IMG/VR virus record: IMGVR_UViG_3300042475_005534
Span: 1-64,000 of that record
Reading direction: 5' to 3' (one strand)
Origin: a virus
DNA length: 64,000 nucleotides
Each line of letters starts with the position of its first letter. The first letter of the stretch is position 1. Position numbers and translations under genes: made by a program. Shown in pieces: positions 8,195-64,000 of the stretch. The notes under the pieces are model-generated. The model saw only the letters and a program-made list of their open reading frames with translations, was not told where the DNA came from and made no database searches.

Positions 8195-9175
8195 ATGCCT
8201 GGCCAACCCGGAGCTTACGGCGGTGGCAGCACAAGGCAGCCCCGTCCCGCTGCCGCCCAGGGTGGTAATCGCTGGTGGAGTCCAAATCCAACGCAACCAG
8301 GCGGCCGGTTCGGTCCTAGGCGGATGCCAGGACTGCCTCCTTCAGCCAAGGTCATTGCAGATTACCCCCAGGGCGTTCCCACCGGCAGCGTCGGCGGCGG
8401 AAACGCCGGGGGCTCGAGACTGGCTTCAGCGCTTCCTCCTCCAACCCGGCAGGTCTCTGCTCGTATTCCCGCTTTTCAGGCTCCCCCACCCCGGACGCCT
8501 GGAATAAGCAATGTGGCCAGGCCCGTGACTGGCCCCTCTGGAAGAGAACGGGCCTACAACGCCATGGTCCAACAGGCGGGATTAACGCCAGAGCAGGCTG
8601 ATGCCGCACAGGCAAGAGGAAAGGCCGCACTGGAATACCGGAAAGGAGGAGCCCTTGATGGAAGACTGGATCCTTCCCAGCAGGAATACTGGGATCAGGC
8701 GGATATCAAGTCCTGGGCTGGCGCCAACAGGAAACTTGCAGACAAGCTCAAGGCCAAGCATGGCTACATGGAGCCAGCTTCGATCGAGGGCATTACTGGT
8801 TCGATCTCCAGACAGCTGCCAAATTTCTCTGGCACGGCAGAACAGGCCTATGCGTCAACTGAAAGCAATCCGTTCTTGCCAGAGGTGAATCTGGGCAGCA
8901 AGTTCAACATCCCCGAAGTCCAGCCCCGTCCCGATGCGTTTCAAGACACCGTAAGCAACATCCCAGCGTGGGAGCCTGACCCGGTGCAGGCCAATCGTGC
9001 GTTTTCCCCAGAGCAAGAGGCCATCTCCCCTTACGGCAAGGCGGGGGATCTTCTGGGTGAGCACCTCAACAGAATTCGCAAGGGGCGGCAAGATGCGCCA
9101 GCCGCGCCCTCTCCCCAGTCCGACGAGGAACTGCTGAGGGGAGTCAATCCTTGGAACCTTAATTGGAGGAAATGA
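8195..9175 (+). CDS. Hypothetical Pro/Gly-rich protein
   Basis: 326-aa ORF tightly packed in the operon. Confidence 0.55.
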   Translation: MPGQPGAYGGGSTRQPRPAAAQGGNRWWSPNPTQPGGRFGPRRMPGLPPSAKVIADYPQGVPTGSVGGGNAGGSRLASALPPPTRQVSARIPAFQAPPPRTPGISNVARPVTGPSGRERAYNAMVQQAGLTPEQADAAQARGKAALEYRKGGALDGRLDPSQQEYWDQADIKSWAGANRKLADKLKAKHGYMEPASIEGITGSISRQLPNFSGTAEQAYASTESNPFLPEVNLGSKFNIPEVQPRPDAFQDTVSNIPAWEPDPVQANRAFSPEQEAISPYGKAGDLLGEHLNRIRKGRQDAPAAPSPQSDEELLRGVNPWNLNWRK

Positions 9176-9591
9176 TGAAGAACGCTCCATCACTGGCAGC
9201 TCTTTTCAGCGGGCATCCGACAGCGCCGGGTGATCCAAGGAATCAGCTCAACAACACGATGAATACCGCAGGATTGCGGCCAATGGAGATCGAGTACCGA
9301 ACGCCATATAACGACAACATCGTTCGATACCCCATCGCAGGGGTGCAACTTGTCGATGCACTGGCGACCCCTCCCCGCAGTCAGTTTCCGTTGACTCCAC
9401 AACAGGAGCAAGCCGCTGACTTTTTGAAAGGCACCACAACACTCCCCATGGGAGAGACAGAGCGCCGTGGACCAGGGAACCGCCTGGCTGGTGCCGACAA
9501 CGGCATCAACCCGGACATGTTCACCGGGCCGACCCGTGGGCCGAGGGGAATGAACACTGCTTTGAGGCGCGGGCCGCAATTGCGTGCCTGA
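9172..9591 (+). CDS. Hypothetical protein
   Basis: GGAGG RBS and ATGA overlap with the previous gene. Confidence 0.55.
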   Translation: MMKNAPSLAALFSGHPTAPGDPRNQLNNTMNTAGLRPMEIEYRTPYNDNIVRYPIAGVQLVDALATPPRSQFPLTPQQEQAADFLKGTTTLPMGETERRGPGNRLAGADNGINPDMFTGPTRGPRGMNTALRRGPQLRA

Positions 9592-9631
9592 CTTTGCTTA
9601 GCATGACCAGGTCAGCAACTTGTAAGAAAAA

Positions 9632-10153
9632 GTGAGCAGTTCAAGCACCAACAAGCAGCCCCTGCTGGTTGATCGACCTCTTCACGAGTTTGCGACTCTT
9701 GGGGCAACGCCAGCCCTGTCGTCGCAGGCCAACCTAGCCAGCATCCTTGGTGGTGGCTGCACCATGCTGGTGGACTGCCTTGGCAACGATGGTGCTGTCA
9801 TTGACAGTCTCTCCCTTGTTGCCACAGAGGCCAATACCACGGCTGCTGTTGTCCTTTTCTTCCTGAGCTCCTCGCCAACACCGTTTGGGATCACAATAGA
9901 GAACACGGCTGTTGTGGCCTCCGCTGCGATTGTCTCAGGTGCTGCGGGACAAAGAACGAACGTCTCCCTGCCTCCTTTGTCTGTACCGGTTCCAAATCTT
10001 GGGGCTGACACGTCCACATCAGAGACGGCCAAGAAGAACACTGGGCTCCTGATCAAAGCCAATCAGCTGCTGTATGTGGGACTGGATCGGGCCATTACTG
10101 CCCCCAATCCCCTTACAAAAGTTAACATTTTTGCCCAAGGCGGGTACTACTAA
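9632..10153 (+). CDS. Probable structural protein
   Basis: 173 aa, MSSSSTNKQPLLVDRPL...AQGGYY, rich in small residues. Confidence 0.55.
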   Translation: MSSSSTNKQPLLVDRPLHEFATLGATPALSSQANLASILGGGCTMLVDCLGNDGAVIDSLSLVATEANTTAAVVLFFLSSSPTPFGITIENTAVVASAAIVSGAAGQRTNVSLPPLSVPVPNLGADTSTSETAKKNTGLLIKANQLLYVGLDRAITAPNPLTKVNIFAQGGYY

Positions 10154-32330: not shown

Positions 32331-34016
32331 TCACACTCTTGCGAGTACAACCTTCTCCGGCTGGTGCTGATACTTGCCATCGCGGTCCTCGTAGGTGACA
32401 TCACAGGGATCCCCCTCGAAAAACAGGAGTTGACAGATCCCTTCATTGGCGTAGATGCGGCAGTCAGCCCCTGAGGAGTTGCTGAACTCCAGGGTGAGGT
32501 GGCCTTCCCAGCCGGCCTCGGCGGGAGTTGTGTTGAGAATGATACCGCAGTTCTTGACAAAGACTCCCGCAGACAGGGCAAAGTTTCCTGTCCTGGGAGC
32601 GGCGAGGCAGTAGGTTGGATGAAGACCAGGAACGCGGCGCACATTGCAAATCTTATGGTTTGCAGCCAGCGTTCCTGCCCGGAAGCCTTCGATGATGCTG
32701 TGGAACCGGCGAAAAGCGGAGCGATCTACGCTCAGCATCCTGGCAGCTCCACGAATGGAACCCGTAGCCAGTAGTGCGTTCGTCAGACTTTCAGAAGTGA
32801 CATCTTTTCGGCGGCGAAGCGCTCCCGCGCCAGCGTGTGCCACGGCCGACTGTTTGGCCCTGGCGTCTGGCTGAAGCCAGCGCTTCTTTCTTGCCTTAGC
32901 AAGGTTTTGACGGCTCTCTTCCGAGTCGAGATAAGGACGTCGTCCCTCTAGGGCCTTGCGCTTGCTCTCGTCACAGTGCAAGGCATTCAAGATTTTTTTC
33001 CGGTGTTGCGAATCCAACGCAAACTTCTCCGCGCTTTTCCGGCCACCATGCAAATGCCTGAGATCTTCCTGGTTGTGAAGTCGCGTGTGCTGCGCTTGCG
33101 TCAACAATGCAAGGTTGTCCGGGTGATTGTTTGTCTTAATTCCGTCTCGATGATGGACGTGCAGATCTTCGCAGTCAAGGATATCCCTGGCGACCATCCG
33201 GTGAACCGATGTGCGTGCACCTCGCCTGTCACTTCCTTTGGAGGCCAGCGCCGAAGCGTGAACCGGATCGTAAACGCCGGGATAGCCGTGGTCCTCCCAG
33301 TCGTAGAAAGCGTGCAGGGAATCCCCAGGCTGGAGGTGCTGGGCCTCTTTCTCAGTACCGTCTCGAAGCAGGAATCCGTGGTCAGGCGTGCAATGAATCA
33401 ATTCTCCGTTGTCCAGTTCAACTTCAAGAAGTTGGCTTTCCTCGATAAGACGCGGCGCAACCAATTCCTGAGCGATGATTCGACCGTCCAGGACTCCGAA
33501 GCCGTACAACCTTTCTCCAGCCTTTGCTTTGTCGATCAATTCCAGAAAGGTGAAATCTCCGTCAACAAGGCGAACCTTGGTGTCACCACTGAAGCAACGC
33601 GCATAAGTGCTCTTGCCCAGGCAGATGACCGTGACATTGGCTGGGACCTTGAGCTTTTCCAGGGCGACCCCGAGTCCGTAGGAGTGGGCCGGGAGAATGA
33701 AGTAGGCCCCATCACTGTCTGAGTGCAGGGCAGCAGGCTCCAGGTTGTCGGGGTTGAACCGCTTGGGGTCCATCACCGTGCCGGGTATATGGCGGAAGAT
33801 CAGGAACTCCTTGGGCGAGAGACGCAGGTCATAGCCGTAGGAGCTGCAGCCGTAGGACAGGGCCGGGACGGTGTCGATCTCCCAGACGACCTTGTCCAGT
33901 ATGGGATCAAAGGAGTAGGGATGCCTCAGCTCAATGCGGCGTACCAGCTCCGGAGTGAACGGTTCGATCATCCCAGCAGAGGCCTGCTGCTTAATCCAGC
34001 GGTCGTTCTTCAGCAT
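32331..34016 (-). CDS. dcd: dCTP deaminase with intein (561-aa precursor, 212 aa spliced)
   Basis: [21 protein letters not shown]|[36 protein letters not shown]. Confidence 0.92.
32550..33596 (-). mobile_element. Intein (349 aa) with HNH endonuclease
   Basis: Begins CFSGDTKV, block [11 protein letters not shown], ends [13 protein letters not shown] followed by +1 Cys; internal [16 protein letters not shown]. Confidence 0.92.
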
Positions 34017-34020
34017 GGGT

Positions 34021-34233
34021 TTAGGGCACGTAGCCCATGACGATGCCCAGGGGAACGACCCCGATCCCAATAGCCCGGATCACAACCACGCCGCCCAGGG
34101 GGTCGAACGACGAGCCAGCAAGCTTGATGATGTTGCTGGTCCAGCCGTAGGAGCTACCGCCCACGATGGCAGCGAAGAGTAAGCCAACACCGATGCTCTG
34201 AAGGCGAAAGACAATCGAAGGACCGCGGGCCAT
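34021..34233 (-). CDS. Small membrane protein
   Basis: GWTSNIIKL...[18 protein letters not shown]. Confidence 0.6.
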
Positions 34234-38733: not shown

Positions 38734-38923
38734 GGTAATCGCAGGAAGAACAGTGGATTTTGTATTGAAGAGGGTTGGTTAAGAGTGCTCCGCTTGGGTC
38801 GGAGTCATATAGCTCCTCCCCGCAGACTGGGCAAGCGATTCCATTGAGACGCGGGCTACTAAGCAAAAAGGCCTTTGCTTGGTGCTTGCGATTGTGGTCA
38901 TATAGTGAGATGAGGTCAGTCAC
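38717..38923 (-). CDS. Small zinc-ribbon protein
   Basis: NGIACPVCGEEL...CSSCDY. Confidence 0.6.
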   Translation of the reverse strand: MTDLISLYDHNRKHQAKAFLLSSPRLNGIACPVCGEELYDSDPSGALLTNPLQYKIHCSSCDYHGQRF

Positions 38924-41142
38924 AGCTCTCGTAGCGATGAATATGGGTTGGGGGTGAATTGTTGGAATGGGTGATCAGCCGTAGCAAAACCGGTCTGGCC
39001 ATACAACTTCAGATCTGCGATTTGCATCATGTTGCCATCCGCTCTAAGAGTTGGAAAGACTAGGCGATAACTATTAAATGCTGACAGCCCATCCATTGAC
39101 ACCAATGGTGCTTCCGTATGTCGCGCAGTGGGCAGCTGCAGCCCACCTGAGATGAGAAGATCCCAGGATCCGTTGCGCTGTCCATAGATCTGGTAAGAGG
39201 CAGGATCCCTGCCGGGCATGTCATTTGCTGTAGTTATCCTGAACCCAGTGAGACGGGTTGCTGTTGAATATGAGAACTCAACACCTGACCGAGACCCCCC
39301 GATATTCAGGTACTTTGTTAAGGGATCATTATCAAAGGCGTTTTCTACCTGCTCGAACACCGGGGAAGCAGTGAAACCATCAAGATCCACCGCAGTGGTT
39401 CTTGATGGCGAGGGGAGAAGCCCTGGTGGCGCAGGGGCTGGCTTCGGCGGAACTGGCTCAGGGGCTGGTGTTGGAGGTGCTGGTGCCGGTGGCACAGGAG
39501 CAGGAGCAGGAGCAGGTGGCGCTGGAGTGGGAGCTGGCGAGCTGGATTGAGTGCCAAAAAGCTTAAGCTCGGCGATCTGCACGAACCAGTCTTGAACACG
39601 CACAGCCGTAAAGATGAGGCGGTACTGCGTGAACAGGGACAGTTCGGGGAGCGTGACTGGTGCTGAGTCGGTCTGCCTGGCCTGTGGGAGCGACAGTGCA
39701 CCCGAGCTGAGTATCTGCCAAGAGGAACCGTCGTTGGAACCCTCAAGGCGGTAGGCGGTCGGATCGTACTGGGGATTGTCGTGAGCTGAGGTGACGATGA
39801 ACGACGTCAGGCGGTAGGGAACATCGTATGTAAATGAGACGCCCGTGGTTCCGTTTCTTCCGTGGTTGTTGCGGTGTGTGGAACTTCTGTTGTTGTCGAA
39901 CGCATTGCCCACCTGCCAGCCACTGTCTACCAAGCCGTTGACGAAACCAGAGTTCAGGGGCGCGGGCAGGAGGTACGGGGTGGACGACGGCGGGGCTGGT
40001 GTTGGAGGTGCTGGTGCCGGTGGTGCAGGAGTAGGAGCAGGAGTGGGAGCAGGGGGTGGGGTTGGCACCGGAGCCGGTCTTGGAGGTACCGGGGCCGGTG
40101 TTGGAGCTGGAAAAACGCCAGTTGGTGGGGTTGCAAGGAATGCCGCTACATTCAGCCGACCGCCTGTCGCCGTTTTGCCCGCCAACGAGGCTGTTGGAGT
40201 GGTACTCGCTAGCAACGCTTCTCGAATCTGTTGAGCACTGGCGGTGGGATACTTACTGGCATAAAGTGCAATGGCTCCCGTAACATGCGGCGCCGCCATA
40301 GAACTGCCGCTCAGGGTTGTGTAATTGTTCCCCGGCAGGGTGGAGTAAATACCAGACGCGGGTGCGCCAAGGTCTACCGTTGTCCTTCCATAATTAAATT
40401 GTTGATTCCCGTTGCTATCTAGTCCTGTTACAGAGATGACGGCTTCGTAACCGGCTCTCTGCAAGGTGCTTATCCCAGATGGGTAGGAGACATGAACATC
40501 ACTGTCCCGACCGGCATTGCCGGCAGCCGCGACGAAGAGAATGCCCGCTTGCGCGGCTCTAACCATGGCGTCTTCCATCCATGGCCCAGTTCCACCTCCC
40601 CATGAGTTGTTACTGGCTACGATGTTGAGACCATGACGACGCTTTAGATCCGTCAGGTAATCCAGGGCCAGCTTGACTCCATAGGTCGTTCCGCCCAAAT
40701 TCCCCAGGAACTTGAGGGGGATAATCTTCACGTTCCAGGCCACTCCAGCGACCCCTTCGCCATTGCCGCCAACAGCCCCGATAATTCCGGCTACATGGGT
40801 GCCGTGGCCGTCTTGGTGACCATCGAAAGTCGTATTGTCATTGCGGTCGAAATCCCAGCCGCGAATATCATCAATGTAGCCGTTTCCATCATTATCAATT
40901 CCGTCTCCCTCTATTTCGAAGGGATTGCGCCAGATATTCGCAGCCAAATCTGGGTGGGTATGATCAATTCCCGTATCAATAATTCCGATGTAAACATCCC
41001 TCGAACCCGTGTGGCCCGTTTTCCATGCTGCTTCGGCATTGGAGCCGAAGCCAGGGCCCATGCCCCATAAGTGGCCATTGGTGAGGGCGGGGTCATTGAT
41101 GGTGACGTTGCTCGTGAAGAGCTGATCCTGTAGCGGTTTCAT
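38920..41142 (-). CDS. S8 subtilisin-like protease with two discoidin/F5-8-like domains
   Basis: Triad IIDTG, HGTHVAG, SGSSMAAPHV; AAGN; two Pro/Ala linkers each followed by NAFDN...TSA(H/N)D...DP..Y...QIA(E/D)LKL. Confidence 0.9.
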   Translation of the reverse strand: MKPLQDQLFTSNVTINDPALTNGHLWGMGPGFGSNAEAAWKTGHTGSRDVYIGIIDTGIDHTHPDLAANIWRNPFEIEGDGIDNDGNGYIDDIRGWDFDRNDNTTFDGHQDGHGTHVAGIIGAVGGNGEGVAGVAWNVKIIPLKFLGNLGGTTYGVKLALDYLTDLKRRHGLNIVASNNSWGGGTGPWMEDAMVRAAQAGILFVAAAGNAGRDSDVHVSYPSGISTLQRAGYEAVISVTGLDSNGNQQFNYGRTTVDLGAPASGIYSTLPGNNYTTLSGSSMAAPHVTGAIALYASKYPTASAQQIREALLASTTPTASLAGKTATGGRLNVAAFLATPPTGVFPAPTPAPVPPRPAPVPTPPPAPTPAPTPAPPAPAPPTPAPPSSTPYLLPAPLNSGFVNGLVDSGWQVGNAFDNNRSSTHRNNHGRNGTTGVSFTYDVPYRLTSFIVTSAHDNPQYDPTAYRLEGSNDGSSWQILSSGALSLPQARQTDSAPVTLPELSLFTQYRLIFTAVRVQDWFVQIAELKLFGTQSSSPAPTPAPPAPAPAPVPPAPAPPTPAPEPVPPKPAPAPPGLLPSPSRTTAVDLDGFTASPVFEQVENAFDNDPLTKYLNIGGSRSGVEFSYSTATRLTGFRITTANDMPGRDPASYQIYGQRNGSWDLLISGGLQLPTARHTEAPLVSMDGLSAFNSYRLVFPTLRADGNMMQIADLKLYGQTGFATADHPFQQFTPNPYSSLREL

Positions 41143-56636: not shown

Positions 56637-56818
56637 TGCGATACGCAGGGGAGGAGACTGAGCTGGCGCAGTTGATCGAGGACGCCATGCGGCGCGATTT
56701 AGAGCTGGCCATTCTTCAGCACTCCCTGCTGGAGGGATTCCGCCGGAAGTTCGCAACTGAAGACCTGGCGGGCCTCCAGCTGCCTGGATGGGATGCACTA
56801 ATGCATGACATGGGGTAA
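56636..56818 (+). CDS. Hypothetical protein
   Basis: TGATG coupling, 60 aa. Confidence 0.45.
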   Translation: MRYAGEETELAQLIEDAMRRDLELAILQHSLLEGFRRKFATEDLAGLQLPGWDALMHDMG

Positions 56819-56845
56819 GTTGTCGGGCATTGCGCAACACACGTC

Positions 56846-57244
56846 ATGCAGTGCGAATGCGGTGGTGAGACAAAGGTGGCTCACACCTACAAGGGGGAAG
56901 ACGGGATACGAGTGAGAGCTAGGAAGTGCGACTGTTGCAGTCAAATGCTGTGGACGTCTCAACAGCCAGAGGAGGTGATCCCAGCTGAGCTGAGGCAGTG
57001 GACAGATGGGAAGCCATGCCGTGCGGCGGAGCCGAGACAGAAGGGGTCTCGCATGCCACCGACGATCGAGGAGTGGGAGGCCAATCCAGAGATGGCCTAT
57101 GGCCTCAAGGCTGACGAGTTGAGGACGCTGGCAAGGCTCAAGGGTTTAACTGGAGCATGGATGTTCAACAAGACTGAGTTGCTGGAGTTCCTGATGGAAG
57201 GAGCCTGGCAGACGGGCCTAGCGAGTGAGAACCACGCGCAATAG
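56846..57244 (+). CDS. NrdR-like zinc ribbon plus Rho-N-like helical domain
   Basis: MQCECGGETKV..T......VRARKCDCC and LKADELRTLARLKGL......KTELL. Confidence 0.55.
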   Translation: MQCECGGETKVAHTYKGEDGIRVRARKCDCCSQMLWTSQQPEEVIPAELRQWTDGKPCRAAEPRQKGSRMPPTIEEWEANPEMAYGLKADELRTLARLKGLTGAWMFNKTELLEFLMEGAWQTGLASENHAQ

Positions 57245-57395
57245 GGCCCTCCAAGGAAGAAGTCCTTGGCATCGTTAGCTGCTGCAACCCCGAGGTAGAG
57301 GAATAGGGCCGCAGAAATGGAGAGCCGGAGGCTTTTACCGAGCTTAGGTCGATGGAGAGAAGTCATGGGGTTGAGAAAGAAGTGAAGTGTGTTGG

Positions 57396-57827
57396 TCAGG
57401 AGGGCGGAAGACAGATCACACGAAAGCCGATGTAGTCGTCGGTATAGCCGGGCAGGTCAATGCCGCGGTGAGCCAAGCGGCGGTCTGAGGGGAGACTGTC
57501 CCAGCCGCCGCCGCGCAATACCGCCCGGCATGGTGCTTCTTCCTGGGGGAGGCACACCACGCGAAACCCGATGACGTCGTTGGCATAGCCGGGCTGGTCG
57601 CGGTAGCGGTAGACCGAGCGGCAGTTCCTGGGGAAGTTGAACCAGGAGCCACCGCGCATTGACAAGTCGCAGCGTGCGGTGGAGGCCCCTGGAGGGACGC
57701 ACACCACGCGGAAACCGATGTTGTCGATTGGCTCGCCGGGTTCTCCGGGAAAGCGATGGGCAGAGCGGCAATGCCTAAGGAAGAAGTCCCAGGGACCGCC
57801 GCGTAACGCCCGATTGGGGATCGTCAT
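57396..57827 (-). CDS. Protein made of three FGE/CLec C-terminal (DGR variable-region-like) modules
   Basis: MTIPNR...; 3 x RGG.W...CRS..R...GFRV(V/I)C; ATGA-coupled to the upstream ORF. Confidence 0.8.
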   Translation of the reverse strand: MTIPNRALRGGPWDFFLRHCRSAHRFPGEPGEPIDNIGFRVVCVPPGASTARCDLSMRGGSWFNFPRNCRSVYRYRDQPGYANDVIGFRVVCLPQEEAPCRAVLRGGGWDSLPSDRRLAHRGIDLPGYTDDYIGFRVICLPPS

Positions 57828-58276
57828 GGTGTCATCCCCCGCGGAAGACAGATCACACGAAAGCCGAGGTCGTAGTCGGCATAGTCGGGCGAATGGGAAA
57901 TGCCGCGACAGGTCGAGCGGCACCAGGGGTAGCTGAGCTGGGCGTGGGAGCCGCCGCGCATGGTTACCTGCGTGGGCTTGACCCCCAGAGGGAGGCACAC
58001 CACGCGGAAGCCCAAGCCGCTGCTGGCATAGCCGGGCTGGAAGCGTCCGAAGCCGCGGCAGGCCGAGCGGCAGAACCCGGGGTTGTTGCCCCAGGAGCCA
58101 CCGCGCAGTGGCGGTAGCATCCGAGGTGGTGCCACCTCCCGAGGGAGGCACACCACGCGGAAACCGACGAGATCGTCTTGGTAGTGCGGAGCGGCGCGTC
58201 GGTAGGACAAGCGTAAATACGCCTGTTGTTCCGTCCTGAAAAACCAAGTACCGCCGCGTTGCACTTGATACGTCAT
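57824..58276 (-). CDS. Protein made of three FGE/CLec C-terminal (DGR variable-region-like) modules
   Basis: 3 x RGG...GFRV(V/I)CLP. Confidence 0.8.
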   Translation of the reverse strand: MTYQVQRGGTWFFRTEQQAYLRLSYRRAAPHYQDDLVGFRVVCLPREVAPPRMLPPLRGGSWGNNPGFCRSACRGFGRFQPGYASSGLGFRVVCLPLGVKPTQVTMRGGSHAQLSYPWCRSTCRGISHSPDYADYDLGFRVICLPRGMTP

Positions 58277-58677
58277 GACCTGCTCAGCAGGAGGAGCAGG
58301 TCAGAGCGGCGAGCTCGGGAGACCTTGTTGCCGCGGTGCCCCCGCTCGCGAGCCAGGGCACGCAGCTGGGACACATTGAGGCTGAGGTCGATTCCATTGA
58401 GAGCGCAGCGGAAGGCTGTTAGCTCCGGGTCTTCTGTAATGGGCACAGAGAGAGTCATAGGAGGGATGGATTGGGGTTCAGGGGGAGTGAGGCCGAGGAG
58501 GTGGAGATGGAGGGCTGCTAGCTGCTGGCTGCGCTCTTCCAGGGCAAGACGCAGCTGGCCGCCGGCGGCGTAGGAGGCGTCGGCAAGATGCCAGAGCAGG
58601 GCAATAGCAATGCAGAAAAAAGGGGCGGCTTGATGCATGAAATGTCGAAGCCGGCCCCCAATCAGATCGGAATGCAT
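58273..58677 (-). CDS. Hypothetical protein with C-terminal Rho-N-like motif
   Basis: From MHSDLIGG; LNVSQLRALARERG.......RRSDLL. Confidence 0.5.
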   Translation of the reverse strand: MHSDLIGGRLRHFMHQAAPFFCIAIALLWHLADASYAAGGQLRLALEERSQQLAALHLHLLGLTPPEPQSIPPMTLSVPITEDPELTAFRCALNGIDLSLNVSQLRALARERGHRGNKVSRARRSDLLLLLSRS

Positions 58678-58687
58678 GGGCAGGGAA

Positions 58688-59407
58688 TCAATAGGGCCTG
58701 TATTCGTTGCGGCACCACTCGAAGACCTGGCCGTGCATGTCGTAGAGGCCCCAGGCATTGGGTTGGTACTGCTTGACATCGCAGGTGGAATCTGCGTTGA
58801 AGCGTGCCTGGGACTCATCGAGGGTGTCACCGAAAGCGAATTCAGTGGTGGTGCCTGCGCGGCAGGCGTATTCCCACTGTTCTTCTGTGGGGAGGGTGTA
58901 GGTCTTACCTGTAGCCCGGCTGAGGCGGGCACAGAATTCCATGGCGTCATACCAGGAGACGCATTCGACGGGGCGGTCATCGCCCTTGAAGCGTGAGGGA
59001 TCGGGATTGAGATCGCGCTCGACCTTGGGCAGGTTCTCGGCGACCCATCGCCACTGGGCTTGAGTGGTCGGAGTTTCCGCCATCTCAAAGCCCTCGTCGA
59101 TGATCACCTCATGGACCGGCTTCTCATCAGAGAAAGCGGACGGTGAATCAGATCCCATCATGAAGCGCCCTGGAGCGATGGAAACCATCGGCAGGTTGAG
59201 GGCGGAAGCGGAGATGCTGTGATTGGAGGTAGTCATGGTTCCTGAAGAAATGGAAGATGGATGGAGGAGGCGGCAGGGGCGAATCCCGATGATGGGGAGG
59301 GCGCAGGCCTTGTTGACGCTGCCCCGGAGGGTGGCACGGCAGTTGCGTGGTTCGTCACTGATCCAGGAGCCACCGCGCAGCTGCCGATGGGCGTCAAGGG
59401 CTGTCAT
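58688..59407 (-). CDS. FGE-sulfatase (SUMF1/CLec-fold) domain protein, C-terminally truncated or circularly permuted
   Basis: MVSIAPGRFMMGS, EKPVHEV, PVECVSWYDA, LPTEEQWEYACRAG, PNAWGLYDMHGQVFEWC, then stop. One RGGSW module lies N-terminal; alternative start at 59236. Confidence 0.88.
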   Translation of the reverse strand: MTALDAHRQLRGGSWISDEPRNCRATLRGSVNKACALPIIGIRPCRLLHPSSISSGTMTTSNHSISASALNLPMVSIAPGRFMMGSDSPSAFSDEKPVHEVIIDEGFEMAETPTTQAQWRWVAENLPKVERDLNPDPSRFKGDDRPVECVSWYDAMEFCARLSRATGKTYTLPTEEQWEYACRAGTTTEFAFGDTLDESQARFNADSTCDVKQYQPNAWGLYDMHGQVFEWCRNEYRPY

Positions 59408-59766
59408 GGCGCCACCTCCCGAGAGAGGCGGACCACACGAAAGCCGAGGCCGTAGCCGCGGTAGCTACCGACGGGCGGGTCGTCTTCGCGGAAGGCCGAG
59501 CGGCAATAGCTGGGAGCTTCGTCCCAGCCGCCGCCGCGCAGCACCGCCCGGCATGGTGCCACTTCCCGAGGGAGGCGCACCACGCGAAACCCGACGTCGG
59601 TAAGGTTTCCCTCTTCGCCTAAGACGGCCTCACTTAGCTCTGCCTCGTGGCGGCCAGCCGAACGGCAGGTATAGGAGGCTTCGCCATAGGAACCACCGCG
59701 AATGGAGTTTCCCAGGGAAAGCGGTAAATCAAGAGACAGTAGAAAAGGGGACAAGCGATAACCCAT
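59404..59766 (-). CDS. Protein made of two FGE/CLec C-terminal modules
   Basis: 2 x RGG...CRSA.R...GFRVVRL. Confidence 0.78.
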   Translation of the reverse strand: MGYRLSPFLLSLDLPLSLGNSIRGGSYGEASYTCRSAGRHEAELSEAVLGEEGNLTDVGFRVVRLPREVAPCRAVLRGGGWDEAPSYCRSAFREDDPPVGSYRGYGLGFRVVRLSREVAP

Positions 59767-59798
59767 GAGACATCAGAGAGGGGTGCATGCCATGGTGA

Positions 59799-60458
59799 TC
59801 AGGAAGGGGTCACAACAGGCGCCTCTCGGATGAGCCGCAACAGGGATTCCCGCTGCCGGCGAGTTTCGGCGGCCCTGGCGGCGGCCCCGGCGGCGTCCCT
59901 GGCGGCGTCCCAGGCGGCCCAGGCGGCCCCGGCGGCGTCCCTGGCGGCGTCCCAGGCGGCCCAGGCGGCCCTGGCGGCGTCCCTGGCGGCGTCCCAGGCG
60001 GCCCAGGCGGCCCTGGCGGCGGCCCCGGCGGCGGCCCAGGCGTTTTTCTCCCAGACGTTGCCAGAAGCCAGTAAATCCATGCCATCAATAACTGGGTCAA
60101 TAACGGCCTGGATTTCGAGCCGCTGAGGAGGGAGATTCCTTAGGGTTTCACCGAGGAAGGCCCAATGGATCAAGGAGAGGTCTTTACCGTCCGTAGCCAC
60201 AGCGTCGGGGAAGTCGTAGAAGAATTGCTTAGCTTCCTCGAGCGGAAGAGATTCAAAGATGTGTTCCGCGATGCGAAGAATGGACTCAGTGAGCCCAAAT
60301 CGCTCCACAGCAGGAGTGGAGTCGTTTGAATGGGTCAGGCACCCGATGAAGCAGCCTTTGCCGTCTGACCAGTAATTACCCTGGACGACGGAATCCGCCG
60401 TGATGTGTTCGTGGACCTCCTGTTTGAGGAGGTCGGTGTTCTTGGTGAGGGTGGTCAT
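59799..60458 (-). CDS. Phage protein with AAWAAWDAARD tandem repeats
   Basis: KGCFIGC N-terminal domain; GC-rich tandem repeat at ~59868-60041. Confidence 0.75.
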   Translation of the reverse strand: MTTLTKNTDLLKQEVHEHITADSVVQGNYWSDGKGCFIGCLTHSNDSTPAVERFGLTESILRIAEHIFESLPLEEAKQFFYDFPDAVATDGKDLSLIHWAFLGETLRNLPPQRLEIQAVIDPVIDGMDLLASGNVWEKNAWAAAGAAARAAWAAWDAARDAARAAWAAWDAARDAAGAAWAAWDAARDAAGAAARAAETRRQRESLLRLIREAPVVTPS

Positions 60459-60647
60459 AAGAAAAGAATTGAGAGGAGGTTAGCCCGCATGCCATGGCTA
60501 ACAAGTCGCCCGGCACGGCTCTGTAAGAGCGCTAGGACACGCAATTGCTTAATGGCCATGGACTCCAGGAGAGGCCGAGCGACGGCCATGGAAGGGGCCA
60601 CTGGATGGATTAGGGCCCCGCCCGGGTGGATGGGGCCTGGATGTACC

Positions 60648-61595: not shown

Positions 61596-61601
61596 TGAGG
61601 G

Positions 61602-61738
61602 GTAGCCCGGTTGCTAACCGGGGCGAAGGGATGTGAGCCGTAGACAGCAGGTGGCACTGCTGAGAAGGCTCACTAAAAAAGCCCCACCCGGGGGATAGCC
61701 GGATGGGGCGGGGTAGGGGGTGCCAGATGTGGCACTAG
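61602..61738 (-). repeat. Intergenic repeat unit (hairpin, terminator, leader motif copy 6)
   Basis: CTAGTGCCACATCTGGCACCCCCTACCCCGCCCC...GGGGCTTTTTT...TGAGCC...TCAGCAGTGC...GGCTCACATCC. Confidence 0.85.
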
Positions 61739-61739
61739 C

Positions 61740-61886
61740 TCATCGGTGGATGAGGGGATAGAGGGGGTCGAAGAACAGACCCATGTCGCCATGGCATAGA
61801 GCCAGGCGAAGAATGAAGCCGAGAGCCAGACACCCAGCGAGGTAGGTCTTGGGGTTGGCTTCGGCGAAGGAGGCGATGGTGCGCAT
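61740..61886 (-). CDS. Small hypothetical protein (48 aa)
   Basis: MRTIASFAEANPKTYLAGCLALGFILRL...; fills the gap between two repeat units. Confidence 0.45.
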   Translation of the reverse strand: MRTIASFAEANPKTYLAGCLALGFILRLALCHGDMGLFFDPLYPLIHR

Positions 61887-61890
61887 GTGA

Positions 61891-62024
61891 GTAGCCGGCG
61901 GCTAGCCGGGGGCAAGGGATGTGAGCCGTAGCAGGTGGTGTGCACTGCTGATTTGGCTCAATGGAAAGCCCCACTTGGATGGTTCCGAGCGGGGCGGGGT
62001 AGGGGGTGCCAGATGTGGCACTAG
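61891..62024 (-). repeat. Intergenic repeat unit (leader motif copy 7)
   Basis: Same architecture as 61602-61738; core at 61942-61951. Confidence 0.85.
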
Positions 62025-62212
62025 GTGTACCAGCGGGGATCATCCTCCTCCGGGGAGAGGAGCATGTCCCCTATGGGCATGAAGGAGGAGGAGGAGAAGA
62101 GATCCCATCCGGCGTTGTAGTCGGGATGGGATCGGTAGTCTCCATCGCTATCGATAGCACGCATGTGCATGCATTCGATCGCGGAGCCCATCCAGGCGTG
62201 GTTGATGCTCAT
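62021..62212 (-). CDS. Hypothetical protein
   Basis: 63 aa; its TAG is the CTAG that starts the repeat unit. Confidence 0.5.
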   Translation of the reverse strand: MSINHAWMGSAIECMHMRAIDSDGDYRSHPDYNAGWDLFSSSSFMPIGDMLLSPEEDDPRWYT

Positions 62213-62214
62213 AA

Positions 62215-62433
62215 TCAGTTGATGACAGGGATTTCGGCTACTTGCTCACGGCAGGACGTGTCGAAGAAAGCCTGCATGGAGTGGTCATCTATGGCGTGCT
62301 CACGGCGGGATATTTCGCGGAAGACCTCCATGAGGCGATCATCCACAGATGGGTCTTCCGTGAGGCGGTATTGGTCGGCGAGCTGGTCAGCTAGCTGATG
62401 GAGCTGGAAATCGGAAAGGGATGTAAGGGACAT
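62215..62433 (-). CDS. Hypothetical protein
   Basis: From MSLTSLSD, downstream of motif copy 8. Confidence 0.55.
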   Translation of the reverse strand: MSLTSLSDFQLHQLADQLADQYRLTEDPSVDDRLMEVFREISRREHAIDDHSMQAFFDTSCREQVAEIPVIN

Positions 62434-62440
62434 AGAAACG

Positions 62441-62538
62441 AAGAAGGTGGTGTCCACTGCTGAGTGGACTCAGTAAAAAAGCCCCACTCGGATGACTCCA
62501 AGCGGGGCGGGGGTAGGGGGTGCCAGAGGTGGCACTAG
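62441..62538 (-). repeat. Intergenic repeat unit (leader motif copy 8)
   Basis: CTAGTGCCACCTCTGGCACCCCCTACCCCCGCCCC...GGGGCTTTTTT...TCAGCAGTGGACAC. Confidence 0.85.
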
Positions 62539-62831
62539 AGGGGAGTGTGCTCATGATCAAGGGTGTCGCAGAGGCGATCCCAAATGCTCTGGAGCCTGTC
62601 GGGTCCGGAGCCCCGGAGGCTCTCCCACCAGGCATCACGGGGGCGATACCCGAAGGCATCTTTGTGTAGGTCGCTAAAGAGATCAATGCGGTAGGAATAG
62701 CCCTCGAGCGGGAAGGACTGGGTGGACCAGGCCTCCGGGGAGATATAGGAGCCGTAGATTTCGCGGTCGAAGGATTCCCGTTCTTGCCGCCAAGCAAGGT
62801 CTTCAGGTGAAAGGGTTGCGGAATTAGTCAT
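62535..62831 (-). CDS. Conserved phage hypothetical protein
   Basis: LFSDLHKDAFGYRPR motif. Confidence 0.7.
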   Translation of the reverse strand: MTNSATLSPEDLAWRQERESFDREIYGSYISPEAWSTQSFPLEGYSYRIDLFSDLHKDAFGYRPRDAWWESLRGSGPDRLQSIWDRLCDTLDHEHTPL

Positions 62832-62851
62832 GGAAATTGCGGGTAGCGAAT

Positions 62852-62932
62852 GGATGTGAGCCGTAGCAGGTGGTGTGCACTGCTGATTTGGCTCAATGGA
62901 AAAAGCCCCTGATCCAGTAAAGGACCAGAGGC
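62852..62932 (-). repeat. Leader motif copy 9 with upstream terminator-like hairpin
   Basis: GGATGTGAGCCGTAGCAGGTGGTGTGCACTGCTGATTTGGCTCAATGGAAA is identical to the corresponding part of copy 7. Confidence 0.85.
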
Positions 62933-62939
62933 GAAGGGA

Positions 62940-63119
62940 TCAAGCAATCGCTTGAGTCCGAAGTGTGGCGAGAAGGCGGCGAGCCCTCTCGATGCAGTAA
63001 CTCGTGGACTGGGGCCATAGTCCACGCGCTCCCTTGAGGGGGTAGACGCTAACTGCAACGGTCTCAGGATTGAGAGTGCTGAAGCGGTAGACCCGATCAG
63101 CAAGAATGACGGTAGCCAT
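62940..63119 (-). CDS. Hypothetical protein (59 aa)
   Basis: From MATVILADRVYRF, downstream of motif copy 10. Confidence 0.5.
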   Translation of the reverse strand: MATVILADRVYRFSTLNPETVAVSVYPLKGARGLWPQSTSYCIERARRLLATLRTQAIA

Positions 63120-63182
63120 TGAGGTTGCTGCTGCAATAGCAGTAGTTGTCGGGCGCTTATCTCCCGTGAAAGCGCTATGCTT

Positions 63183-63209
63183 CTCAACAGATGGTGTGCA
63201 CTGCTGAGT
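63183..63209 (-). promoter_or_regulatory. Conserved leader hairpin motif, copy 10
   Basis: CTCAGCAGTGCACACCATCTGTTGAG, core at 63198-63207. Confidence 0.7.
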
Positions 63210-64000
63210 TGCTTCACTGATGATGTGATCATGAGTAGTGCAACCGCGCTGCGTGCGTGAGTGTGTGCGAAAGGGAGCGGGAGTGGGAGCGTAGCGTAGG
63301 GAGCTAGGGAAGCGAGAGATAGCAGGTGCTGCAAGGGAAGGGGAGGATGAGAGATGTAAGGGTAAGATAGAGATAGTGAGGGTAGAGTATAAGAGTAGAG
63401 CGTAGTATAGGGAGTGTAGCAAAAGTATAGAAAGGATAAAAGGAACCAGGGAGGCATAGCATATGCCGCAACTATCGCTGCTGCTGCTGCATCCGCTGCA
63501 TTGGCGCTAGCTGCTGCTATGCATTAGCTACGCGACCTGCTGCTACGCGTTGCGGCAAGGCACGTATCCCCCCTCGCTGCTCCGCTCGCGGCGCTTGCTG
63601 CTGCTGCTGACAGGGGCGCTACATGCCTAATCTTTTTTTTCCTCCCAGGTTCCCATTTTGCGTGGGGGGTTTTTGATGTATGGAGCGCGCCGCAAAAAAT
63701 TTTCAGAATTCCATAGGGGAGCTTGCTTCTGTTGCTTGATTCATGGGGTGAAAGGCGTTATGATTCGCAGTGCGCGACACAGCATGCAAGCGCAACCAAC
63801 CATCGGAGCAACCCCAATGACCGATCCAAAACCCCAGCACCCAACGAATCCCCCTAATTCGCCGGATCACTTCTGGGCTGTGGAATCCGGACGACAGGGC
63901 TGGCGTCTCCCCACAGGAGGAAGCGCAGGAGGAGGGGCTGCTGCGGCGTCTTGTAATCCGGCTAGCGGCCTGTCCGCTTTTGCAGGGCGGGTCCCTGGGC

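What the first reader, a model, noticed from the sequence alone, without database searches (positions are those of the whole stretch)
57396..59766. Split C-type-lectin (FGE) scaffold plus a library of nine variable C-terminal modules
Seen: the FGE-sulfatase gene 58688-59407 has all N-terminal and core motifs but stops at EWCRNEYRPY*, just before the canonical RGGSW...CRSA.R...GFRVV segment. That segment occurs nine times nearby, each with a different central sequence: two copies in 59404-59766, one at the N-terminus of the FGE ORF (59267-59377), three in 57824-58276 and three in 57396-57827. The ORFs are open, co-oriented and mostly ATGA-coupled. Established: this segment carries the ligand-binding variable residues of CLec-fold DGR target proteins. 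Inference: a constant scaffold may be completed in trans or by circular permutation using interchangeable variable peptides, or the modules may be donor cassettes recombined onto the scaffold. Either way it would be a diversification system I do not recognise as described.
Basis: partly seen in the sequence, partly recalled or inferred. Interest (0 to 1): 0.92.

Follow-up and report, generated by a model that had tools for sequence, protein, structure and literature searches.

The report
Phage variable-repeat array matching host retroelement
A lake cyanophage carries one truncated lectin-like binding-protein core plus nine copies of its variable binding segment, and these segments bear the mutational signature of a diversity-generating retroelement whose template and reverse transcriptase are found not in the phage but in Cyanobium genomes.

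Summary
The complete 88-kb phage genome holds exactly nine RGGSW..CRSA..GFRVV modules, all at 57414-59700 on the minus strand, around an FGE/CLec core that stops before its own module.

The split is not an artefact. It recurs in relatives with 54-97% core identity, and core dN/dS is 0.08-0.20.

At codons where a template has AAC, positions 1-2 vary and the third-position C is kept. Modules M5 and M8 equal the template repeat of chromosomal Cyanobium DGRs at 48 of 50 non-adenine sites, yet differ at 17 and 12 of 25 adenines. Relatives reach 50 of 50.

No reverse transcriptase was found in any of the ten phage records searched. The window's own genome also lacks an Avd match and an Asn-rich template.

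The variable information therefore comes from a host-type DGR, either written in trans or captured by recombination.

One module sits N-terminal to the core, which is a circular permutation. A complex model docks M8 into the core (0.86 against 0.06 for the best control).

Two other first-stage notes on this stretch had already proposed the NNC footprint.

The parts
59404..59766 (-). ORF1, 120 aa, with modules M1 (59578-59700) and M2 (59431-59538). It forms the upstream variable array.
   Evidence: Identity to L001 is only about 25-65% per 40-nt bin here, while the flanks are about 95-100%. In runs X15 and X20 this stretch is replaced by other modules.
59273..59377 (-). M3, the module at the N-terminus of the core ORF. 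This is the variable segment in circularly permuted position. Its end reads GIRPC rather than GFRVV.
   Evidence: BLASTP to the C-terminal VR of the Cyanobium target. dN/dS is 0.67-1.48 with dS similar to the core. In the AF2 model the GIRPCRLL strand (residues 41-50) has pLDDT 87, but residues 1-30 are below 45. The variable part is exchanged in X15/X20, with the breakpoint at 59283.
58688..59236 (-). FGE/CLec-type core without its C-terminal variable repeat. It stops after EWCRNEYRPY.
   Evidence: Pfam PF03781 positions 5-194 of 255, E 2.5e-41. dN/dS 0.08-0.20. AF2 pLDDT 80-97. Foldseek hits PvdO 5hha (E 5e-10) and FGE structures. 44% identity to a Cyanobium DGR target.
58273..58677 (-). 134-aa ORF. 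It begins like a module ORF (MHSDLIGG), then has a hydrophobic stretch and a SAP/Rho-N-like tail. It occupies the place of the first downstream module ORF of L002.
   Evidence: L002 reads MHSDLRGGSW... (P0005 joins its inner MTLSVPI.EDPELTAFR directly to modules). No Pfam or PHROG family was found (one search scanned the ORF without its first three residues).
57824..58276 (-). ORF4, 150 aa, with modules M4, M5 and M6. M5 (57998-58105) is a young variable repeat.
   Evidence: Against the Cyanobium TR core, M5 differs at 17 of 25 adenines and 2 of 50 non-adenines, plus a 6-nt insertion.
57396..57827 (-). ORF5, 143 aa, with modules M7, M8 and M9. M8 (57555-57656) is a young variable repeat and is the module docked in the complex model.
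   Evidence: M8 differs at 12 of 25 adenines and 2 of 50 non-adenines, Fisher p 1.2e-5. ORF5 residues 53-95, which span M8, form the interface.

Best explanation
This is an operon in the early (replication) region of a freshwater cyanophage. The phage is related to S-EIVl, and its probable host is Cyanobium. The operon encodes a rebuilt homologue of the host's DGR target protein.

The CLec/FGE core has lost its C-terminal variable repeat (VR). One VR-type module (M3) is fused to its N-terminus as a circular permutation. Eight more modules are encoded in four small co-oriented ORFs that are mostly linked by stop-start overlaps.

Shown:
- All nine modules are DGR-type variable repeats.
- The youngest two (M5, M8) are adenine-mutagenised copies of a template repeat nearly identical to that of chromosomal Cyanobium DGRs.
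- The phage has no RT and no Avd match, and none of its nine modules is Asn-rich (template-like).

Inferred:
- The variable information is supplied by a host-type DGR. My odds within this reading are about 0.45 that the host RT/TR complex writes into phage DNA in trans, and about 0.4 that host VR/TR DNA is captured by recombination at the shared anchors. The remainder is undecided.
- The modules are then reshuffled, gained and lost by recombination at the RGGSW, CRSA and GFRVVCLP anchors.
- The modules are translated, and each can complete the single core, M3 in cis and the others in trans. One scaffold gene would then display several alternative binding surfaces.

The ligand is unknown.
For: (1) Footprint.
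- In 12 gapless modules from four phages, the 10 codons that are AAC/AAT in an Asn-rich template have entropy 1.62/1.44/0.41 at positions 1/2/3. The other 30 codons have 0.63/0.53/0.76.
- 70% of 613 variable-segment codons end in C, against 45% of 3675 codons in eight other genes.
- K/E/Q/M/W make up 6% of residues there, against 16-22% elsewhere.

(2) Template match.
- A chromosomal Cyanobium DGR (L217) has Avd, RT, TR and an FGE-type target next to FtsH and LexA genes. Its own VR differs from its TR at 15 adenines and 0 other sites in 120 nt.
- Against that TR core (25 A, 50 non-A), M8 differs at 12 A and 2 non-A, and M5 at 17 A and 2 non-A.
- In relatives: L002_d1_m1 11 and 0 (p 9e-7); L002_d2_m1 12 and 1; L078_m1 16 and 1; L003_d_m1 17 and 2. 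In L003 and L078 the GC-rich tract sits in AT-rich phage DNA. In L003 its 5' edge is the same as the host TR/VR edge, and in L078 it is the same but for one mismatch.
- Of the 81 template-like stretches compared (from the loci plus the phage contig of L160/L161), Cyanobium or Prochlorococcaceae MAGs gave most of the best matches to the window modules (L216, L217, L175, L223, L192). L185 (a Cyanobacteriota MAG) and the phage's own L160 ranked among them.

(3) Machinery absent from the phages.
- No RVT_1 match in the window genome (DTR, rated 100% complete) or in 9 other phage records, 3 of them rated 100% complete.
- The same search finds the RT in 4 of 5 Cyanobium genomes.
- No Avd family match, and no Asn-rich module in the genome.

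(4) Function of the split.
- The truncated core is kept in L001, L002, L003, L007, L009-L011, L031 and L078.
- Core dN/dS is 0.08-0.20.
- The anchor residues R, G, G / C, R, S / G, F, R vary only at third codon positions.
- L078 and L009 encode 2 or 4 modules plus the truncated core in one ORF.
- P0185 has 4 modules, a core and 5 more modules in one 731-aa polypeptide.

(5) Complex model. Core residues 58-239 with ORF5 score ipSAE 0.86, against 0.06 for the best of 3 controls. That mark was reached by 58 of 80 solved complexes and 2 of 110 mismatched pairs. The runs agree in at least 97% of contacts. The partner's pLDDT is 52-57. The docked part is M8. These are halves of a known fold, so the pass may reflect likeness to solved FGE structures.

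(6) Turnover.
- The arrays drop to about 45-65% identity between phages whose flanks and core are about 95-100% identical.
- A 90%-identity protein cluster holds members with 2, 3 or 4 modules.
Against: - No direct sign of ongoing diversification. Contigs of runs recorded under 2020 (X15, X20) carry the downstream arrays essentially unchanged (0 differences over 56900-58082; at most 2 of X20's 27 differences remain unplaced). Contigs hide rare variants.
- M5 and M8 still have 2 non-adenine mismatches. Their 3' anchor differs from the Cyanobium TR at 3-5 synonymous sites, so no cognate TR is in hand.
- Seven of the nine window modules have 7-15 non-adenine mismatches, which means they are old or have been altered otherwise.
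- The host assignment is indirect. It rests on 42% identity of a portal-like protein to Synechococcus phage S-EIVl and on the TR match.
- No prophage copy was found in 301 genomes of the Cyanobium family sampled, so there is no long residence in a DGR-bearing cell.
- An unmutated template copy inside a phage ORF (L160_m1: 0 of 25 A changed) points to DNA-level capture rather than mutagenic writing.
- The AF2 monomer models place only the last strand of the cis module with confidence (pLDDT 87 in ORF2, 63-66 in L078). The rest of the module is below 45.
- No expression data were available.
Confidence: 0.6

Rival explanations
1. Fossil of a lost phage DGR. An ancestral phage carried its own RT/TR. 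The cassette was lost, and the arrays are relics with no present link to host DGRs. They are now shaped only by recombination and selection.
For: No RT in 10 phage records. Most window modules are diverged from any template, with 7-15 non-adenine mismatches. The arrays are stable between runs.
Against: Young modules with 0-2 of 50 non-adenine mismatches to one Cyanobium TR occur in four phage lineages whose cores differ by dS 0.37-0.86 and whose GC differs widely, including GC-rich tracts inside AT-rich DNA. Third positions of the variable codons are better conserved than those of the flanking anchor codons. The exact template pattern was found in only 1 phage contig of the viral collection.
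Confidence: 0.12
2. RT-independent cassette system. The modules diversify only by recombination and positive selection, either as silent donors for an expression site or as interchangeable peptides.
For: Modules are mosaic, with halves shared between different modules and phages. Alternative module joints appear in minor contigs. Copy number varies.
Against: Selection plus recombination does not explain variation confined to codon positions 1-2 with C kept at position 3. It also does not explain identity to a host TR at synonymous sites. No inverted repeats or nearby recombinase were found.
Confidence: 0.06
3. Non-functional debris. This would be a decaying copy of a captured host DGR target, broken by frameshifts, with leftover VR fragments.
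For: The frames change between ORFs. High GC keeps many frames open by chance. Some modules have lost canonical residues (M1, M4). The Atlas model of ORF5 alone is poor, with pTM 0.25.
Against: Core dN/dS is 0.08-0.20. The same truncation point is kept at 54-97% identity with different downstream frames. An ATG lies just before the first module of every module ORF, and the ATGA junction recurs in many database proteins. Anchor residues are conserved through synonymous change.
Confidence: 0.08
4. Recoding. A frameshift or read-through joins the core to the downstream module to give an ordinary full-length FGE-type protein.
For: In L002 the youngest module lies 10 nt after the core stop, in the place of the canonical VR. 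P0072 and P0075 read from the core through out-of-frame modules into an in-frame one.
Against: The downstream frame is +1 in the window and L002 but -1 in L003. No slippery site was seen on reading the sequence. In the window a 134-aa unrelated ORF intervenes. L078 has no downstream module at all within 6.7 kb.
Confidence: 0.04

Closest known systems
Diversity-generating retroelements with FGE-type CLec targets (Treponema TvpA type; cyanobacterial DGRs)
   Same: The same fold, and the same position of the variable repeat (RGGSW..GFRVV). The same AAC-to-NNC footprint. The template family is shared with Cyanobium DGRs. General DGR features are taken from PMC5758913 and PMC7159879 (passages read).
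   Different: No RT, Avd or TR in the element. There are nine VRs for one core. The core is truncated, and the VRs sit in separate ORFs or N-terminally. Most modules have drifted beyond adenine sites.
Trans-acting DGRs on remote targets within one genome (Thiohalocapsa PB-PSB1; PMC10907252, passages read)
   Same: [quoted passage not shown] L002_d1_m1 meets it (50 of 50), and M5 and M8 nearly meet it (48 of 50).
   Different: Here the TR/RT would lie on another replicon and in another organism (host chromosome against phage genome). My searches found no description of that.
Silent-cassette gene conversion (Neisseria pilE/pilS, Borrelia vlsE; recalled, not read here)
   Same: Arrays of partial copies with conserved anchors and variable cores, and mosaic exchange of sub-segments.
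   Different: All copies lie in ATG-started frames. No single expression site is evident. The primary variation is retroelement-type.
Tail-fibre inversion systems and shufflons (Mu Gin, P1 Cin, R64 Rci; recalled)
   Same: Alternative C-terminal specificity segments for one constant part.
   Different: All modules are co-oriented. There are no inverted repeats beyond chance and no recombinase nearby. The locus is not in the structural module.
Tandem whole FGE-type paralogues in cyanophages (Microcystis phages Ma-LMM01 and MaMV-DC; metagenomic phages L034-L064)
   Same: Phage-borne multi-copy FGE-type proteins whose C-terminal segments differ.
   Different: Those repeat the whole domain, core plus module in frame. 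The window repeats only the module.

Membership tests
Diversity-generating retroelement (complete cassette) | DGR-type reverse transcriptase encoded in the element | tested here: not met
   RVT_1 search of the complete genome found 0 matches. It also found 0 in 9 related phage records. The same search finds the RT in 4 of 5 Cyanobium genomes.
Diversity-generating retroelement (complete cassette) | Template repeat (adenine/Asn-codon-rich copy of the VR) in the element | tested here: not met
   The genome has nine modules and none is Asn-rich. The template pattern is present in only one phage contig of the viral collection, and that is not this phage.
Diversity-generating retroelement (complete cassette) | VR differs from a TR at adenine positions only | tested here: met
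   Met approximately, and against a TR in another genome. M8 differs at 12 of 25 A and 2 of 50 non-A, and M5 at 17 of 25 and 2 of 50. L002_d1_m1 differs at 11 of 25 and 0 of 50. Seven other window modules have 7-15 non-A mismatches.
Diversity-generating retroelement (complete cassette) | Accessory protein Avd | tested here: not met
   PF05635 search of the genome found 0 matches. An Avd-like ORF lies next to the RT in Cyanobium locus L217; I read this from the ORF list and did not scan it.
Diversity-generating retroelement (complete cassette) | IMH and a downstream hairpin at the 3' end of the VR | tested here: inconclusive
   The 3' anchor GG.TT.CG.GTGGT.TGCCTCCC resembles the host VR/TR end but differs at 3-5 synonymous sites. 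A short CCTCC-N4-GGAGG stem in LPREVAP linkers was seen by eye only. No functional definition exists for this DGR family.
Diversity-generating retroelement (complete cassette) | Target protein with a CLec fold carrying the VR | tested here: met
   Pfam FGE-sulfatase. Foldseek hits to PvdO and FGE. 44% identity to a Cyanobium DGR target.
FGE-sulfatase domain protein (PF03781) | Whole domain in one polypeptide in canonical order | tested here: not met
   The core covers profile positions 5-194 of 255. The modules cover 214/217-255 in other ORFs or N-terminally.
FGE-sulfatase domain protein (PF03781) | Formylglycine-generating catalytic activity (copper-binding cysteine pair) | not tested
   No residue-level comparison with FGE active sites was made. 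DGR-type CLec proteins are binding proteins (PMC7159879, passages read).
Invertase or shufflon specificity switch | Inverted recombination sites and a site-specific recombinase at the locus | tested here: not met
   Only 9 weak inverted pairs of 14-21 nt at 76-88% identity. The neighbours searched gave a Mu Gam-like protein and unknowns.
Silent-cassette gene conversion system | One expressed copy plus untranslated donor copies | tested here: inconclusive
   All nine modules lie in ATG-started ORFs. Relatives fuse modules to the core. No expression data were available.

The most novel reading that the evidence does not exclude
An RT-less lytic cyanophage uses its host's chromosomal DGR as a writing machine. 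During infection the Cyanobium RT/Avd/TR-RNA complex retrohomes adenine-mutagenised cDNA into phage-borne variable repeats. The phage keeps many such repeats as separately translated peptides that compete to complete one shared, circularly permuted CLec core. A single scaffold gene thereby displays a host-written, recombination-shuffled library of binding sites, possibly aimed at the host's own DGR-diversified sensor proteins.
Probability: 0.25. Interest if true: 0.95.

Novelty: new variant of a known kind. Interest (0 to 1): 0.82.

Why it matters
DGRs are understood as self-contained cassettes that diversify targets on their own replicon. Here the variable repeats sit in phage genomes with no RT found. 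Their template type sits, with RT and Avd, in the chromosome of the probable host genus, and the match extends to synonymous sites.

If the host machine writes into phage DNA, that would be cross-replicon hypermutation in a host-virus conflict. If instead the phage harvests host-made variants, that would be a new route by which phages acquire pre-diversified binding loops.

Separately, there is one truncated CLec core with up to nine separately encoded or N-terminally fused variable segments. I found no published case of the binding-loop segment of this fold being supplied by circular permutation or in trans.

Both ideas can be tested directly with a Cyanobium-phage pair or with a reconstituted DGR.

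Tried and rejected
- Intron or ribozyme between core and modules: an Rfam scan of 56800-60600 at E<=1 gave only two chance-level sRNA hits.
- Invertase or shufflon: no meaningful inverted repeats. Promoter and terminator scans were at shuffle level.
- Module-against-module test for adenine bias: the best pair had 9 of 21 mismatches at A. I first read this as "no DGR signature". It was the wrong test, because two VRs differ at template-A columns whatever base each holds. It was superseded.
- AF2 of L078 (2 modules plus core): the modules had pLDDT about 30, so it says nothing on cis docking beyond the last strand.
- Prophage search: the portal-like protein was not found in 301 sampled genomes of the family of G010. 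This shows nothing by itself.
- Read laying used contigs only. Parts without cover, and the depth peak at 58724-58951 (conserved FGE motif of other organisms), carry no meaning.
- The metagenome scan added only L078, the fragment L079 and L080 (the same contig as L003) as close or split relatives. The 12 other "truncated" flags were misses of my regex.
- The output was cut in the middle, so my list of split loci among the 73 viral loci is a lower bound.
The best-template ranking covers 81 stretches only.
- Supplements of the DGR papers were closed. They may list orphan VRs that I could not see.
- Literature searches and passages read found no split or permuted FGE core with module arrays, and no host-to-phage DGR action.
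Full report
**What is there**

The window is the first 64 kb of an 88,123-bp IMG/VR virus record with direct terminal repeats, rated complete.

On the minus strand between 59766 and 57396 lie five co-oriented ORFs:
- ORF1, 120 aa, two modules.
- ORF2, 239 aa, one module and then an FGE/CLec core.
- A 134-aa ORF with no family.
- ORF4, 150 aa, three modules.
- ORF5, 143 aa, three modules.

Pfam places ORF2 residues 74-237 on FGE-sulfatase profile positions 5-194 of 255 (E 2.5e-41). The module ORFs match only positions 214/217-255. A six-frame regex scan of the whole genome finds exactly nine modules, all here. Three of the four ORF junctions are ATGA overlaps.

**The split is conserved and selected**

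Relatives whose cores are 97% (L001), 82% (L002), 78% (L078) and 54% (L003) identical all end the core just before the module position. Phages at 41-51% identity (L007, L009, L010, L011) and a GC-34% phage (L031) do the same.

The downstream module ORF is in the +1 frame in the window and L002, and in the -1 frame in L003. A conserved frameshift is therefore unlikely.

Most other relatives are ordinary unsplit FGE-type genes. In the metagenome loci, 60 core matches were whole. Most of the 73 viral loci were whole as well; that output was partly cut.

Core dN/dS is 0.08-0.20. The module next to the core has dN/dS 0.67-1.48 at similar dS. The invariant anchor residues (R, G, G / C, R, S / G, F, R) vary only at third codon positions.

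**Architecture**

BLASTP against a Cyanobium DGR target aligns ORF2 residues 67-236 to the target's residues 55-260. It aligns ORF2 residues 8-55 (M3) to the target's C-terminal variable repeat, residues 290-336. This is a circular permutation.

Other lineages show related layouts:
- L078 has 2 modules plus a truncated core in one ORF, with no other module in 6.7 kb.
- L009 has 4 modules plus core, and L011 has 3.
- Among the 120 best ORF2 homologues, 77 had my core motif. Of these, 50 were canonical. The rest were 9 with no module, 8 with one N-terminal module only, and 10 further mixed forms.
- A phmmer search of 1.84 billion representatives gave 1478 hits at E<=0.001. Of the best 150, 88 had no core motif. 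These are module-only proteins, mostly with 2-4 modules.
- Single polypeptides with one core and many modules also exist: P0185 with 4 + core + 5, P0203 with core + 6, and P0191 with 5 + truncated core.

**Structure models**

- AF2 of ORF2 gives a confident core (pLDDT 80-97) and a confident GIRPCRLL strand of M3 (87). The rest of M3 is below 45.
- Foldseek finds PvdO and FGE structures.
- AF2 of L078 leaves its modules unplaced.
- The complex model of core residues 58-239 with ORF5 scored ipSAE 0.86, against 0.06 for the best of three controls. That mark was reached by 58 of 80 solved complexes and 2 of 110 mismatched pairs. The runs agree in at least 97% of contacts. The partner's pLDDT is 52-57. 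The interface is ORF5 residues 53-95, which is module M8.
- These are the two halves of a fold with solved structures. The pass shows compatibility and may come from memory.
- The Atlas model of ORF5 alone is poor, with pTM 0.25.

**Hypervariability**

Between the window and L001, the flanks, the core and the 134-aa ORF are about 95-100% identical per 40-nt bin. The two arrays (59768-59424 and 58263-57429) fall to about 45-65% identity with indels. L001 has 2 + 1 + 4 + 2 modules.

The stretch is held by 24 lake-water metagenome runs recorded from 2020 to 2024.

Contigs from X15 and X20 carry the downstream arrays essentially unchanged, and the core with 27 differences. Everything between 59283 (the GIR anchor of M3) and 59794 is replaced by other modules. 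Minor contigs in X3 and X7 join modules differently.

Modules are mosaic, with halves shared across modules and phages. One 90%-identity protein cluster has members with 2, 3 or 4 modules.

**The modules are DGR variable repeats**

Two other first-stage notes on this stretch (e1-6115934 and e1-6115944) proposed an NNC footprint. My first test, which compared module with module, missed it. The proper tests support it:
- In the variable segments, 70% of 613 codons end in C, against 45% in eight other genes. K/E/Q/M/W are 6% of residues, against 16-22%.
- A related phage contig (L160) and the database protein P0336 contain Asn-rich, template-like modules.
- In 12 gapless modules from four phages, the 10 codons that are AAC/AAT in that template have entropy 1.62/1.44/0.41 at positions 1/2/3. 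The other 30 codons have 0.63/0.53/0.76. The 3' anchor codons reach 1.73 at position 3.

Ordinary selection does not keep third positions fixed while the first two vary.

**Where the template is**

A pattern scan of one genome per prokaryote species found the template motif in at least 120 stretches. Most of the records listed were cyanobacteria, with a few Planctomycetota and others.

I compared 81 template-like stretches with the window modules. Cyanobium or Prochlorococcaceae MAGs gave most of the best matches (L216, L217, L175, L223, L192), and several of these carry lake time-series names. L185 (a Cyanobacteriota MAG) and the phage's own Asn-rich module (L160) ranked among them.

L217 is chromosomal, with FtsH, a carbamoyltransferase-like gene and LexA next to it. 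It holds an FGE-type target, TR, RT and an Avd-like ORF. Its VR differs from its TR at 15 adenines and 0 other sites in 120 nt.

The table compares phage modules with that TR core (25 A, 50 non-A).

| Module | A sites changed | Non-A sites changed |
|---|---|---|
| M8 | 12 of 25 | 2 of 50 |
| M5 | 17 of 25 | 2 of 50, plus a 6-nt insertion |
| M6 | 15 of 23 | 7 of 49 |
| M2 | 16 of 25 | 9 of 50 |
| M9 | 16 of 25 | 11 of 50 |
| M3 | 12 of 23 | 13 of 49 |
| M7 | 15 of 25 | 14 of 50 |
| M1 | 13 of 25 | 15 of 50 |
| M4 | 13 of 24 | 15 of 48 |
| L002_d1_m1 | 11 of 25 | 0 of 50 |
| L002_d2_m1 | 12 of 25 | 1 of 50 |
| L078_m1 | 16 of 25 | 1 of 50 |
| L003_d_m1 | 17 of 25 | 2 of 50 |

Fisher p for the five young modules tested (M8 and the four modules of relatives) ranges from 1e-5 to 4e-9. 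In L003 and L078 the GC-rich tract sits in AT-rich phage DNA. In L003 it begins at the same base as the host TR/VR homology, and in L078 it does so but for one mismatch.

**What the phages lack**

- No RVT_1 match in the window genome or in nine other phage records. Four of the ten records are rated 100% complete. The same search finds the RT in 4 of 5 Cyanobium genomes.
- No Avd family match in the window's genome.
- The exact template pattern occurs in one contig of the viral collection only.

**Context**

The terminase, the portal-like protein and a 1611-aa tail-fibre protein lie at about 75-88 kb. The locus lies in the minus-strand block with a Mu Gam-like protein, DUF932 and a VapE-type primase. 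It is therefore probably not a virion gene.

The portal-like protein is 42% identical to that of Synechococcus phage S-EIVl. Core homologues occur in Microcystis phages. No prophage copy was found in 301 sampled genomes of the Cyanobium family. The Cyanobium genomes searched hold 5-15 FGE-type matches each.

**Reading**

Shown:
- The anatomy of the locus.
- Selection on the split core.
- The DGR footprint.
- The near-exact match of young modules to Cyanobium TRs.
- No RT found in any of the ten phage records, and no Avd match or Asn-rich module in the window's genome.

Inferred:
- The information comes from a host-type DGR, either by trans retrohoming or by recombinational capture. The unmutated template copy in L160 shows that DNA-level capture happens at least sometimes.
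- The modules are translated and complete the core in cis or in trans.

Against rapid ongoing writing: the arrays are unchanged between runs recorded years apart. No cognate TR with a perfect match to a window module is in hand.

I found nothing in print on split or permuted FGE cores with module arrays, or on host-to-phage DGR action (passages). Supplements were closed.

Noticed in passing
window 32331-34070 (-): A 579-aa dCTP-deaminase-like ORF is interrupted by an intein with an HNH endonuclease (Pfam DCD, Intein_splicing and HNH_3).
   Followed up: no
window 58273-58677 (-): A 134-aa ORF sits between the core and ORF4. It starts MHSDLIGG, like the first downstream module ORF of L002 (MHSDLRGGSW). 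It continues with a hydrophobic stretch and a SAP/Rho-N-like tail. Database protein P0005 joins its inner MTLSVPI.EDPELTAFR directly to modules. It looks like an insertion or replacement within a former module ORF.
   Followed up: partly
window 59799-60458 (-): A 219-aa ORF has AAWAAWDAARDAA-type repeats. The repeat block differs between the window and L001, and contigs in other runs skip or replace 122-132 nt there.
   Followed up: no
window about 61600-63460: A repeated intergenic element of about 100 nt (it reads ..SSAHHLLRLTS.. when translated) lies between small minus-strand genes. Copies also occur in L001. Other first-stage notes describe it as well.
   Followed up: no
L160:3795-4334: A phage ORF has a first module that is an unmutated Asn-rich template copy (0 of 25 adenines changed, 3 of 50 other sites) and lacks the host spacer. 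It is followed by a diversified module. A second ORF at 8868-9722 has three modules plus a C-terminal domain. No RT was found in that 26.8-kb record.
   Followed up: partly
P0153 cluster (L009/L011 lineage): Within one 90%-identity cluster, members have 2, 3 or 4 N-terminal modules (282-392 aa). One member (P0336) has an Asn-rich, template-like module.
   Followed up: partly
P0185, P0203, P0191 (metagenome proteins): Single polypeptides with one FGE core and 5-9 tandem modules (4 + core + 5; core + 6; 5 + truncated core). P0185's modules contain W, Q, E, K and M, so they do not look DGR-written.
   Followed up: partly
L034-L064 (viral contigs) and Microcystis phages Ma-LMM01/MaMV: These phages carry 2-6 tandem complete FGE-type paralogues ending GFRVVCDN, each with a different C-terminal segment.
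   Followed up: no
G012:C58:117351-142767 (Cyanobium sp. FGCU6 genome): A cluster of at least seven FGE-sulfatase matches surrounds a DGR-type RT at 129699-130337. Some matches cover only profile positions 4-209/220.
   Followed up: no
window 38920-41142 (-): A 740-aa subtilase (Peptidase_S8) with an F5/8 type C domain is encoded in a phage genome.
   Followed up: no
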